Positions 10,660 to 11,276 of a stretch of DNA of 24,898 bases are shown here, in pieces. The stretch comes from a virus. Lineage: Duplodnaviria > Heunggongvirae > Uroviricota > Caudoviricetes. The stretch is taken from IMG/VR virus record IMGVR_UViG_2718218305_000013, one strand, 5' to 3'. Within the stretch, counting starts at the first letter, position 1, and the number at the start of each line of letters is the position of its first letter. The notes beneath the pieces were generated by a model. That model saw only the letters and a list, made by a program, of their open reading frames with translations, had not been told where the DNA came from and did not search any database. The position numbers were made by a program, and so were the translations under genes.

Positions 10660-11276
10660 TATCTCACCGTCCAAATTACTTCACCATCATTAACCAAATG
10701 ATGGCATATTCCTTTTTTATCATTTGCTTCACATATTTTTGATAGTACTGAATGTGCAATTGGTGTCAGAACAGCCTGCTTCAAGACTGCATTACACCTA
10801 ATAAATGCATAATTATGGTCTTCATAAAAGACGGGTTCAATTGAAGATGAAATGTAACATTTCAATGCTTTGAATACATCATCTTTAAATACTTCGCGGA
10901 CAAAAACCTCAAGCGAAGATGCAAAATAAAAATCATTTCTACTATTATTAAAGTGTCGTCTGTATGGATCATCAAGCTCTAAGAAAGAACTATAAGTTTT
11001 ATTTCCATGCTCTGAATAGGCTTGAAGCAGTGCATTAACATATACAGACTCTTTTTTTGAATTGTATGTTGGAATTTCATTTGGAGGGATTCTCACGACA
11101 TACAGCTCGTTAAAGTACTTAAAATAAAGGTGTGTATTTGCAATATCATTTAAAATCAATGATAAGGGTAGAGAGTAAAAAATACTAAAATCAAAATCCT
11201 CAATATATTTTTTTATTTCATCATCTAATGGAATATCAATCTTTTTAGTTATTTTTTTGAAATTGCTGAATCCCAT
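10659..11276 (-). CDS. Cassette gene B: unknown, 205 aa; probably the C-terminal part of an A-B fusion (-1 frame relative to A)
   Basis: Overlaps A by 28 nt in the -1 frame; the overlap contains the heptamer A AAA AAA immediately before the A stop codon. Confidence 0.5.
   Translation of the reverse strand: MGFSNFKKITKKIDIPLDDEIKKYIEDFDFSIFYSLPLSLILNDIANTHLYFKYFNELYVVRIPPNEIPTYNSKKESVYVNALLQAYSEHGNKTYSSFLELDDPYRRHFNNSRNDFYFASSLEVFVREVFKDDVFKALKCYISSSIEPVFYEDHNYAFIRCNAVLKQAVLTPIAHSVLSKICEANDKKGICHHLVNDGEVIWTVR

What the first reader, a model, noticed from the sequence alone, without database searches (positions are those of the whole stretch)
11249..11276. Slippery heptamer A AAA AAA immediately before the stop of gene A places gene B in the -1 frame
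The A/B overlap reads ...att tca aaa aaa TAA in the A frame and ...ttc aaa aaa ata act in the B frame. B is exactly the -1 frame, and the shift site is a canonical X XXY YYZ heptamer (A7) directly followed by a stop, the same geometry as dnaX and IS3-family frameshift sites. So A and B may be expressed as a roughly 335-aa fusion (nuclease domain plus C-terminal domain) by programmed -1 frameshifting or transcriptional slippage. Alternatively the homopolymer has suffered an indel, leaving a phase-variable or pseudogene copy.
Basis: seen in the sequence. Interest (0 to 1): 0.55.

Follow-up and report, generated by a model that had tools for sequence, protein, structure and literature searches.

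The report
Frameshifted Lamassu nuclease pseudogene, not recoding
The "slippery" A7 run is real, but it is the scar of a one-base deletion that split the effector nuclease gene of an already decaying anti-phage (Lamassu) system in an E. coli O157:H7 satellite prophage, so it is an ordinary pseudogene and not a programmed frameshift.

Summary
On the minus strand, gene A (11249-11665) ends ...TCA AAA AAA TAA. Gene B (10659-11276) lies in the -1 frame, and adding one A gives a 335-aa ORF.

The programmed-frameshift reading does not hold. A and B are the two halves of one protein, LmuA, the Mrr-like nuclease plus CTD6 effector of a type II Lamassu (ABC-3C) defence system. The system sits in the psu-int hotspot of the P4-like prophage Sp2 of E. 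coli O157:H7.

- More than 150 homologous proteins and all 86 homologous loci first fetched encode it as one ORF.
- Whole-gene DNA alignments to the three closest intact relatives (82-92% identity) show exactly one gap, at this run (TCA AAG AAA ATA against TCA AA- AAA ATA).
- There is no downstream RNA structure, whereas a genuine IS3 frameshift cassette in the same window scores strongly.
- The partner ATPase gene lmuB is also broken: an old A6-to-A5 deletion, an O157-specific TTA-to-TAA nonsense codon, and further lesions in individual lineages.
- All 307 complete E. coli genomes that carry the locus have A7.

One point is open. An exact in-frame (A8) LmuA is on record on 434 public contigs. 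Whether these are real variants or homopolymer errors could not be tested.

The parts
11252..11258 (-). A7 homopolymer, the site of the one-base deletion that splits lmuA. It forms a formal A AAA AAA heptamer in the frame of gene A.
   Evidence: Sequence. It is the only gap in whole-gene DNA alignments to Proteus (91.9% identity) and Pantoea/L111 (82%) lmuA. Aeromonas has an in-frame A8 at the same gene position, nt 408.
11249..11251 (-). Premature TAA stop. It is created automatically when ...AAA ATA ACT loses one A and becomes ...AAA TAA CT.
11249..11665 (-). lmuA 5' fragment (gene A, 138 aa, GTG start with AAAGGAG Shine-Dalgarno). It holds the complete Mrr/PD-(D/E)xK-like nuclease domain with the invariant GxGDxGxD and QCK motifs.
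   Evidence: PADLOC LmuA profile positions 10-140, E 9e-41. Invariant columns. Mrr_cat hits in 4 of 23 homologues. In the AlphaFold model of the 335-aa Xenorhabdus homologue the alpha/beta core ends at helix 120-135 and residue 138 lies in the loop 136-148. The best fold matches are solved LmuA structures.
10659..11276 (-). lmuA 3' fragment (ORF B, 205 aa as listed): linker plus CTD6 docking/oligomerisation domain. Its first 8 codons (MGFSNFKK) are an out-of-frame artefact and its ATG has no Shine-Dalgarno.
   Evidence: Pfam CTD6 E 7.7e-30. PADLOC LmuA profile positions 141-333. The upstream sequence GCAGTCCTTGATTC|ATG has no SD.
10201..10659 (-). lmuC (ABC-3C middle component 2, 152 aa), apparently intact.
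   Evidence: Pfam MC2 E 6e-30. PADLOC LmuC E 2.5e-36. RefSeq annotation.
8389..10208 (-). lmuB pseudogene (SMC-like ABC ATPase, 606 aa once repaired), present as three ORFs.
   Evidence: Annotated as a pseudogene in the Sakai record. tblastn with the Xenorhabdus LmuB shows an in-frame stop and a frame change. The two-repair reconstruction is 95% identical, without gaps, to an intact 606-aa Klebsiella aerogenes protein.
9576..9578 (-). Nonsense codon TAA in lmuB (ancestral TTA, Leu), specific to O157:H7.
   Evidence: O55:H7 RM12579 and Proteus both have TTA at this position. Klebsiella has Leu there.
9013..9017 (-). A5 run in lmuB, the site of an older one-base deletion (ancestral A6). It is shared by O157:H7 and O55:H7 and is not a slippery heptamer.
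   Evidence: Proteus reads GGT AAA AAA TAT AAA AAA ATA CAT. The repaired reading ...LEDKKYKTIHS... is identical to the Klebsiella protein across the site. O55:H7 does not differ from the window here.
11669..12850 (-). P4-type tyrosine integrase, one border of the satellite's defence hotspot.
   Evidence: Pfam and annotation.
6401..7979 (+). sid-like, psu and ogr/delta genes of the P4-like satellite, the other border of the psu-int hotspot.
   Evidence: Annotation. Hotspot definition in PMC9122126.

Best explanation
Genes A and B are the two pieces of one gene, lmuA. LmuA is the effector of a type II Lamassu (ABC-3C) anti-phage system, lmuA-lmuC-lmuB. The system is carried in the psu-int defence hotspot of the P4-like satellite prophage Sp2 of E. 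coli O157:H7.

In an ancestor shared with O55:H7, one base was lost from the Lys-Lys-Ile tract TCA AAR AAA ATA. That deletion left A7, created an immediate TAA stop and pushed the rest of the gene into the -1 frame. The 'slippery heptamer plus stop plus -1 ORF' geometry is a mechanical by-product of the deletion. It is not an evolved recoding signal.

The system is a decaying pseudogene cluster. lmuB carries an equally old A6-to-A5 deletion, and different sublineages have added further lesions.

Shown here: the single-gene ancestry, the exact deletion, the lack of a stimulator and the multiple lesions in lmuB.

Inferred: only trace amounts of full-length LmuA are made, by spontaneous slippage. 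In E. coli, heptamers without a stimulator give at most about 10 times a 0.055% background. Whatever is made has no working LmuB partner.
For: (1) A and B map to adjacent halves of one LmuA profile.

(2) 157 homologous proteins have E of 1e-5 or better. Nearly all of the 120 listed are single 324-381-aa proteins that cover 91-100% of the fusion; the shorter entries are fragments, including the E. coli half itself. All 86 homologous loci fetched by then give one tblastn HSP across the junction. The motif W-D-x-S-I-S-K-K-I-T runs straight through the junction.

(3) The closest intact relatives each have a 335-aa lmuA with the same GTG start and Shine-Dalgarno. They are Proteus (92% aa identity), Pantoea alhagi and L111 (86%); the last two sit in P4-like satellites with the same gene order. 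Each DNA alignment has exactly one gap, at the run.

(4) Intact systems measure 335/152/604-612 aa.

(5) The 109 nt downstream fold at -8.7 kcal/mol with z = +1.28, so 187 of 200 shuffles fold as well. There is no Rfam hit. The IS3-family cassette in the same window gives an ALIL pseudoknot at 121.5 bits and a fold of -38.6 kcal/mol with z = -2.67.

(6) lmuB lesions: a TAA where O55:H7, Proteus and Klebsiella have Leu, and an A5 run where relatives have A6. The repaired protein is 95% identical, without gaps, to an intact Klebsiella LmuB.

(7) Decay continues. O55:H7 RM12579 has its own A6-to-A5 deletion. Other O157 genomes show an extra frameshift or an IS insertion in lmuB. Of 8 substitutions between O55 and O157, 7 are nonsynonymous or nonsense.

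(8) A7 is fixed in 307 of 307 complete genomes.

(9) Heptamers without a stimulator give only 2.1-10 times a 0.055% background in E. coli (PMC4066793).
Against: The exact in-frame 335-aa product (the A8 allele) is on record on 434 public contigs, against at least 1000 (the counting cap) for each half. The LmuC protein is indexed in 14,929 blocks. Some isolates may therefore really carry A8. The only A8 copy I could read (L100) comes from an assembly with 21 gap openings in 3.3 kb, nearly all at homopolymer runs.

A7 followed by a stop is a site where low-level slippage is physically plausible. The slipped product would be the exact ancestral protein. No expression data were examined.
Confidence: 0.93

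Rival explanations
1. Programmed -1 ribosomal frameshifting (or programmed transcriptional slippage) at A AAA AAA yields both a free nuclease domain and a full-length LmuA in a set ratio.
For: There is a formal X XXY YYZ heptamer followed by a 0-frame stop. The shifted product reproduces the conserved S-K-K-I-T sequence exactly.
Against: Neither the site nor the split is conserved. Every homologue is one ORF, and the nearest relatives read AAG AAA A or AAT AAA A. There is no downstream structure and no Rfam frameshift element, although the same tests detect the window's IS3 cassette. No strong Shine-Dalgarno-like element lies upstream; the best is GGGA. lmuB is broken at a site that is not slippery, plus a nonsense codon, so a full-length LmuA would have no partner. 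From general knowledge, A7 is shorter than the runs of about 9 or more used for efficient transcriptional slippage in bacteria.
Confidence: 0.03
2. Phase variation: the A7/A8 tract is a reversible on/off switch for the toxic effector, kept because it is useful.
For: The homopolymer lies inside a coding region. The exact A8 product is on record on 434 contigs of a very large assembly collection.
Against: None of 307 complete genomes has anything but A7. Eight of nine copies in IMG/VR and metagenomes are A7, and the single A8 copy is in an assembly riddled with homopolymer errors. None of five reconstructed intact E. coli LmuB sequences exists in the collection, so an 'on' LmuA would still lack its sensor. 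Tract-length drift is expected in any pseudogene.
Confidence: 0.03
3. Sequencing or assembly error in this window: the true sequence is A8 and the gene is intact.
For: Homopolymers are error-prone, and A8 calls exist in some assemblies.
Against: 307 independently finished genomes, among them Sakai and EDL933, agree on A7.
Confidence: 0.005
4. A natural two-subunit LmuA: the nuclease (A) and the docking domain (B) work as separate polypeptides.
For: The break falls in a loop between the nuclease core and the rest of the protein. Both ORFs are annotated as CDSs in RefSeq.
Against: No such split occurs in more than 150 homologues. B has no Shine-Dalgarno and its first 8 codons are out-of-frame sequence. 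In solved Lamassu complexes the effector is controlled through the covalently linked oligomerisation/docking domain (abstracts of 10.1101/2025.03.14.643221 and 10.1101/2025.06.23.660979). lmuB is inactive.
Confidence: 0.005

Closest known systems
Type II Lamassu / ABC-3C defence systems (LmuA-LmuC-LmuB; DdmABC of Vibrio cholerae; Salmonella LmuACB structures 9hqx and 9nxx)
   Same: The gene order lmuA-lmuC-lmuB is the same. The repaired LmuA is an N-terminal nuclease plus a CTD6 domain, lmuC is an MC2 middle component, and lmuB is an SMC-like ABC ATPase of about 606 aa. The best fold matches of a close homologue are solved LmuA chains. The system sits in a mobile-element defence hotspot.
   Different: The effector nuclease is Mrr-like, not the Cap4-type of the solved systems, and has no sequence-level PDB match. 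In this window the system is non-functional: lmuA is frameshifted, and lmuB is both frameshifted and truncated by a nonsense codon.
IS3-family / dnaX-type programmed -1 frameshift cassettes
   Same: An A-rich heptamer sits at the end of the upstream ORF, a stop follows directly, and the downstream ORF is in the -1 frame. The window's own IS3-family element has this geometry (ctc tgg aaa aaa TGA).
   Different: There is no stimulatory pseudoknot, hairpin or Shine-Dalgarno-like element, and no conservation of the site or of the split. The homologues are single ORFs.
Homopolymer-indel pseudogenes, and 'compensatory' low-level frameshifting on indel alleles (Atkins et al. 2016, PMC5009743)
   Same: A one-base indel in a mononucleotide run disrupts an otherwise conserved ORF. 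Rare slippage on the same run would restore the native protein.
   Different: There is no evidence that a trace of product is selected for here. The obligatory partner gene is independently inactivated.

Membership tests
Programmed -1 ribosomal frameshift site | Slippery X XXY YYZ heptamer in the 0 frame | tested here: met
   tcA AAA AAA TAA in the frame of gene A.
Programmed -1 ribosomal frameshift site | Stimulatory element: a downstream hairpin or pseudoknot at the right spacing, and/or an upstream Shine-Dalgarno-like sequence | tested here: not met
   The 109 nt downstream fold at -8.7 kcal/mol with z = +1.28. A permissive Rfam scan finds nothing relevant. The upstream sequence holds only GGGA. 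The positive control in the same window is an ALIL pseudoknot at 121.5 bits with z = -2.67.
Programmed -1 ribosomal frameshift site | The shift site and the two-frame gene organisation are conserved among homologues | tested here: not met
   All homologues are single ORFs. The nearest relatives read AAG AAA ATA or AAT AAA ATA in frame.
Programmed -1 ribosomal frameshift site | Measured frameshift efficiency above background, with both products detected | not testable with these tools
   This needs a reporter assay or proteomics. The literature expectation for heptamers without a stimulator is 2.1-10 times a 0.055% background.
Type II Lamassu / ABC-3C system | LmuA effector: an N-terminal effector domain fused to an ABC-3C C-terminal domain | tested here: met
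   The repaired 335-aa protein matches PADLOC LmuA positions 10-333 of 336 with E 8e-89 and Pfam CTD6 with E 2e-29. As encoded in the window, however, it is split by the frameshift.
Type II Lamassu / ABC-3C system | Middle component LmuC | tested here: met
   MC2 E 6e-30 and LmuC E 2.5e-36.
Type II Lamassu / ABC-3C system | Intact SMC-like ABC ATPase LmuB | tested here: not met
   It is present as three ORFs, with a TAA nonsense codon at 9576-9578 and a one-base deletion at 9013-9017. By descent the locus is a Lamassu system, but it is not a functional member.
Type II Lamassu / ABC-3C system | Protection against phages or plasmids | not testable with these tools
   This needs cloning and a challenge experiment.
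Phase-variable contingency locus | Tract-length polymorphism among closely related isolates | tested here: inconclusive
   None of 307 complete genomes differs from A7. Eight of nine other copies are A7. The exact A8 product is nevertheless on record on 434 contigs that could not be inspected.
Phase-variable contingency locus | The 'on' state restores a working function | tested here: not met
   lmuB carries independent lesions in every copy examined. None of the five reconstructed intact E. coli LmuB sequences is in the collection.

The most novel reading that the evidence does not exclude
The A7/A8 tract behaves as a reversible switch in natural O157:H7 populations. On this reading the 434 contigs with the in-frame allele are real. 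It would also mean that spontaneous ribosomal or transcriptional slippage on A7 supplies a trace of full-length Mrr-type LmuA, or that the free nuclease domain has some LmuB-independent activity, such as toxicity or interference with helper phage.
Probability: 0.05. Interest if true: 0.4.

Novelty: already known. Interest (0 to 1): 0.12.

Why it matters
This is mainly a correction. RefSeq annotates the two halves as ordinary genes ('hypothetical protein' and 'ABC-three component system protein'). They are one frameshifted lmuA pseudogene.

The locus is also a clear, datable example of stepwise decay of a defence system inside a P4-satellite hotspot. Two old poly-A deletions were followed by lineage-specific nonsense, frameshift and IS lesions. 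A recent survey (PMC13586616) reports that recognisable defence pseudogenes are rare in such hotspots, so this case is a small counter-example. It does not open a new mechanism.

The locus also shows how a homopolymer deletion inside Lys-Lys-Ile codons automatically mimics a textbook frameshift cassette.

Tried and rejected
1. Pfam on gene A alone gave nothing. Identification came from PADLOC and from the homologue alignment.

2. The first protein search missed the closest LmuA relatives. They were found only indirectly, by reconstructing LmuB and reading the neighbourhoods of its homologues.

3. Gene calls in the public collection list lmuA of Proteus and Pantoea alhagi as 145 and 201 aa. This looked like further splits, but translation shows intact 335-aa ORFs with a GTG start.

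4. The 81-nt query around the lmuB TAA found nothing because of the low-complexity filter. A 161-nt query worked.

6. The O157:H7 FRIK944 system that Rousset et al. tested without activity turned out to be a different one, a cytidine deaminase. It says nothing about this locus.

7. A profile search of the PDB by sequence gave no hit. Only the fold search linked the protein to solved LmuA structures, and with low TM-scores (0.25-0.29) because the two domains are oriented differently.

Full report
**What is at the site.** The relevant genes lie on the minus strand. Gene A (11249-11665, 138 aa, GTG start preceded by AAAGGAG) ends ...gat tca gca att tca aaa aaa TAA. ORF B (10659-11276, 205 aa) starts at an ATG 25 nt upstream of that stop and lies in the -1 frame. 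The A7 run occupies 11252-11258. In A's frame it reads tcA AAA AAA, a formal X XXY YYZ heptamer followed directly by a stop. A -1 slip, or one extra A, gives ...S-K-K-I-T-K-K-I-D... and a 335-aa ORF. The run by itself is unremarkable: the operon is 31% G+C and has 8 A/T runs of 7 or more bases in 3.3 kb.

**Where the window comes from.** The region is identical to E. coli O157:H7 Sakai and EDL933. It covers the junction of prophage Sp1 with the P4-like satellite prophage Sp2. The gene order is int, gene A, ORF B, an ABC-3C middle component 2, three ATPase fragments (annotated in Sakai as one pseudogene, ECs_0293), then ogr/delta, psu and sid on the other strand. This is the psu-int interval, described as the defence hotspot of P4-like satellites (PMC9122126).

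**What A and B are.**
- ORF B carries Pfam CTD6 of ABC-3C systems (E 7.7e-30).
- Against PADLOC, A matches positions 10-140 of a 336-position LmuA profile and B matches positions 141-333. The repaired fusion matches positions 10-333 with E 8e-89.
- The next gene is LmuC. The ATPase of the intact Xenorhabdus system is LmuB.
- ABC-3C and type II Lamassu are the same family (PMC10586767; 10.1101/2025.06.23.660979).
- The N-terminal part has the invariant G-x-G-D-x-G-x-D and Q-C-K motifs, and some homologues hit Pfam Mrr_cat.
- An AlphaFold model of the equal-length Xenorhabdus homologue (pLDDT 92) puts residue 138 in a loop (136-148) just after the alpha/beta nuclease core. Its best PDB fold matches are solved LmuA chains, followed by Cap4, MspJI and FokI nuclease domains.

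**Comparative evidence.**
- A search with the fusion found 157 proteins. Nearly all of the 120 listed are single chains of about 324-381 aa that cover 91-100% of the fusion. The only E. coli entry is the half-protein cluster.
- The alignment runs through the junction without a break and shows a conserved W-D-x-S-I-S-K-K-I-T motif.
- Eighty loci from a species-level genome collection, plus six fetched individually, each give a single tblastn HSP across the junction.
- Intact neighbours measure 335/152/604-612 aa for LmuA/LmuC/LmuB.

**The closest relatives.** Reconstructing LmuB and searching with it led to much closer systems. One is in Proteus mirabilis. The other two, Pantoea alhagi and L111, lie in P4-like satellites with the same proBA-int-lmuACB-delta-psu-sid layout. 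Their lmuA genes are intact 335-aa ORFs with the same GTG start and Shine-Dalgarno. They are 92% and 86% identical in protein to the repaired fusion. Each whole-gene DNA alignment to the window (91.9% and 82% identity) contains exactly one gap, at the run: window TCAAA-AAAATAAC against TCAAAGAAAATAAG or TCCAATAAAATAAG. Aeromonas dhakensis has an in-frame A8 (TCA AAA AAA ATT) at the same gene position. The window has therefore lost one base from a Lys-Lys-Ile tract. Because ATA A becomes TAA, the stop directly after the heptamer follows automatically.

**Tests for a recoding signal.** The 109 nt from the run onward fold at only -8.7 kcal/mol, with z = +1.28, so 187 of 200 shuffles fold at least as well. 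A permissive Rfam scan of the region finds nothing relevant. The 20 nt upstream contain no Shine-Dalgarno-like element stronger than GGGA. The window also supplies a positive control, an IS3-family element at about 22.2-23.5 kb with the sequence ctc tgg aaa aaa TGA. It is detected as an ALIL frameshift pseudoknot at 121.5 bits, and its downstream 109 nt fold at -38.6 kcal/mol with z = -2.67. In E. coli, heptamers without a stimulator give only 2.1-10 times a background of 0.055% (PMC4066793).

**The rest of the system is broken too.**
- tblastn with the Xenorhabdus LmuB shows an in-frame stop and a frame change.
- The stop (TAA, 9576-9578) is TTA (Leu) in O55:H7 RM12579 and in Proteus, and Klebsiella has Leu at that position.
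- The frame change is an A5 run (9013-9017) where Proteus has A6. It is not a slippery heptamer.
- With both repairs the protein is 606 aa and 95% identical, without gaps, to an intact Klebsiella aerogenes protein. This includes the sequence across both repaired sites.
- The lmuA deletion and the lmuB A5 deletion are shared by O157:H7 and O55:H7. The TAA is specific to O157.
- O55:H7 RM12579 has its own extra A6-to-A5 deletion. Other O157 genomes have a further frameshift or an IS insertion in lmuB.
- Seven of the eight substitutions that separate the O55 and O157 copies are nonsynonymous or nonsense.

This is the pattern of continuing neutral decay.

**Population data.** An 81-nt query centred on the run matches 308 records (307 complete genomes, O157:H7 and O55:H7), all at 99% identity or more and 80% coverage or more, so all have A7. 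No other E. coli lineage has even a diverged copy. Eight of nine copies in IMG/VR and metagenome contigs are A7. The single A8 copy (L100) comes from an assembly with 21 gap openings in 3.3 kb, nearly all at homopolymer runs.

**The open point.** An exact-sequence look-up shows that the in-frame 335-aa product is on record on 434 contigs. Each half is on at least 1000 contigs (the counting cap), and LmuC is indexed in 14,929 blocks. That puts A8 calls at roughly 1-3% of assemblies. I could not inspect these contigs, so I cannot say whether they are real variants or errors. None of five reconstructed intact E. coli LmuB sequences is in the collection. An in-frame lmuA would therefore most likely still sit beside a dead lmuB.

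**Verdict.** The programmed-frameshift interpretation is not supported. The feature is an ordinary frameshift pseudogene of a known defence-system family. Its only wider value is as an annotation fix and as a tidy example of stepwise decay of a defence system in a satellite hotspot, where such pseudogenes are reported to be rare (PMC13586616).

Noticed in passing
window 22239-23452 (-), ALIL pseudoknot at 23055-23171: An IS3-family insertion sequence with a genuine -1 frameshift cassette. orfA (23126-23452) ends ctc tgg aaa aaa TGA, and orfB (22239-23129) overlaps it in the -1 frame. Rfam ALIL pseudoknot scores 121.5 bits. The downstream fold is -38.6 kcal/mol with z = -2.67. It served as the positive control.
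   Followed up: partly
window 8389-10208 (-): lmuB is a pseudogene with two lesions in this window: TTA to TAA at 9576-9578 (O157-specific) and A6 to A5 at 9013-9017 (shared with O55:H7). RefSeq PGAP records annotate the three pieces as separate CDSs. The Sakai record marks one pseudogene.
   Followed up: yes
L089 (O55:H7 RM12579), L091/L092/L093/L098, L096, L094: Decay of lmuB has gone on independently in different lineages. O55:H7 RM12579 has an extra one-base deletion in the A6 run at window 9041-9046. Several O157 genomes split the middle fragment into 129 + 67 aa. One has an IS insertion inside lmuB (L096). One copy next to proBA lacks the TAA and has a 417-aa ORF (L094).
   Followed up: partly
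clusters: Near-identical fragments of lmuA and lmuB are deposited under Salmonella enterica (several serovars, contigs up to 0.9 Mb). They include 188-aa C-terminal LmuB pieces of the same length as in O157, which suggests that the same decayed element, or at least the same lmuB frameshift, occurs outside E. coli. Mislabelling was not excluded.
   Followed up: no
L109 3543-4550 and L110 3543-4550: Public gene calls list lmuA of Proteus mirabilis and Pantoea alhagi as 145 and 201 aa because the GTG start was missed. Both are intact 335-aa ORFs. Short calls in this family should not be read as splits without checking.
   Followed up: yes
window 4902-4989 (-) and 5058-5135 (-): Rfam C4 antisense RNA (84 bits) and isrK (71.9 bits). 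This is the immunity and regulatory RNA region typical of P4-like satellites.
   Followed up: no
window about 13013-13056: Just beyond the integrase gene lies a stretch that looks like the 3' part of a tRNA gene (ggtgccgataataggagtcgaacctacgaccttcgcattacgaat). It is probably the attachment-site remnant between Sp1 and Sp2. ARAGORN finds no complete tRNA in the window.
   Followed up: no
One of the roughly 309 matching places in complete E. coli genomes is on a record labelled as a plasmid, and one genome has two places. This may be a misassembly or a duplicated Sp2 segment.
   Followed up: no
The word-indexed protein search with the LmuA fusion returned a best hit of 67% identity, although 86-92% identical LmuA genes exist in Proteus and Pantoea. 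They surfaced only through the LmuB search. The absence of close hits in that tool is not proof of absence.
   Followed up: yes
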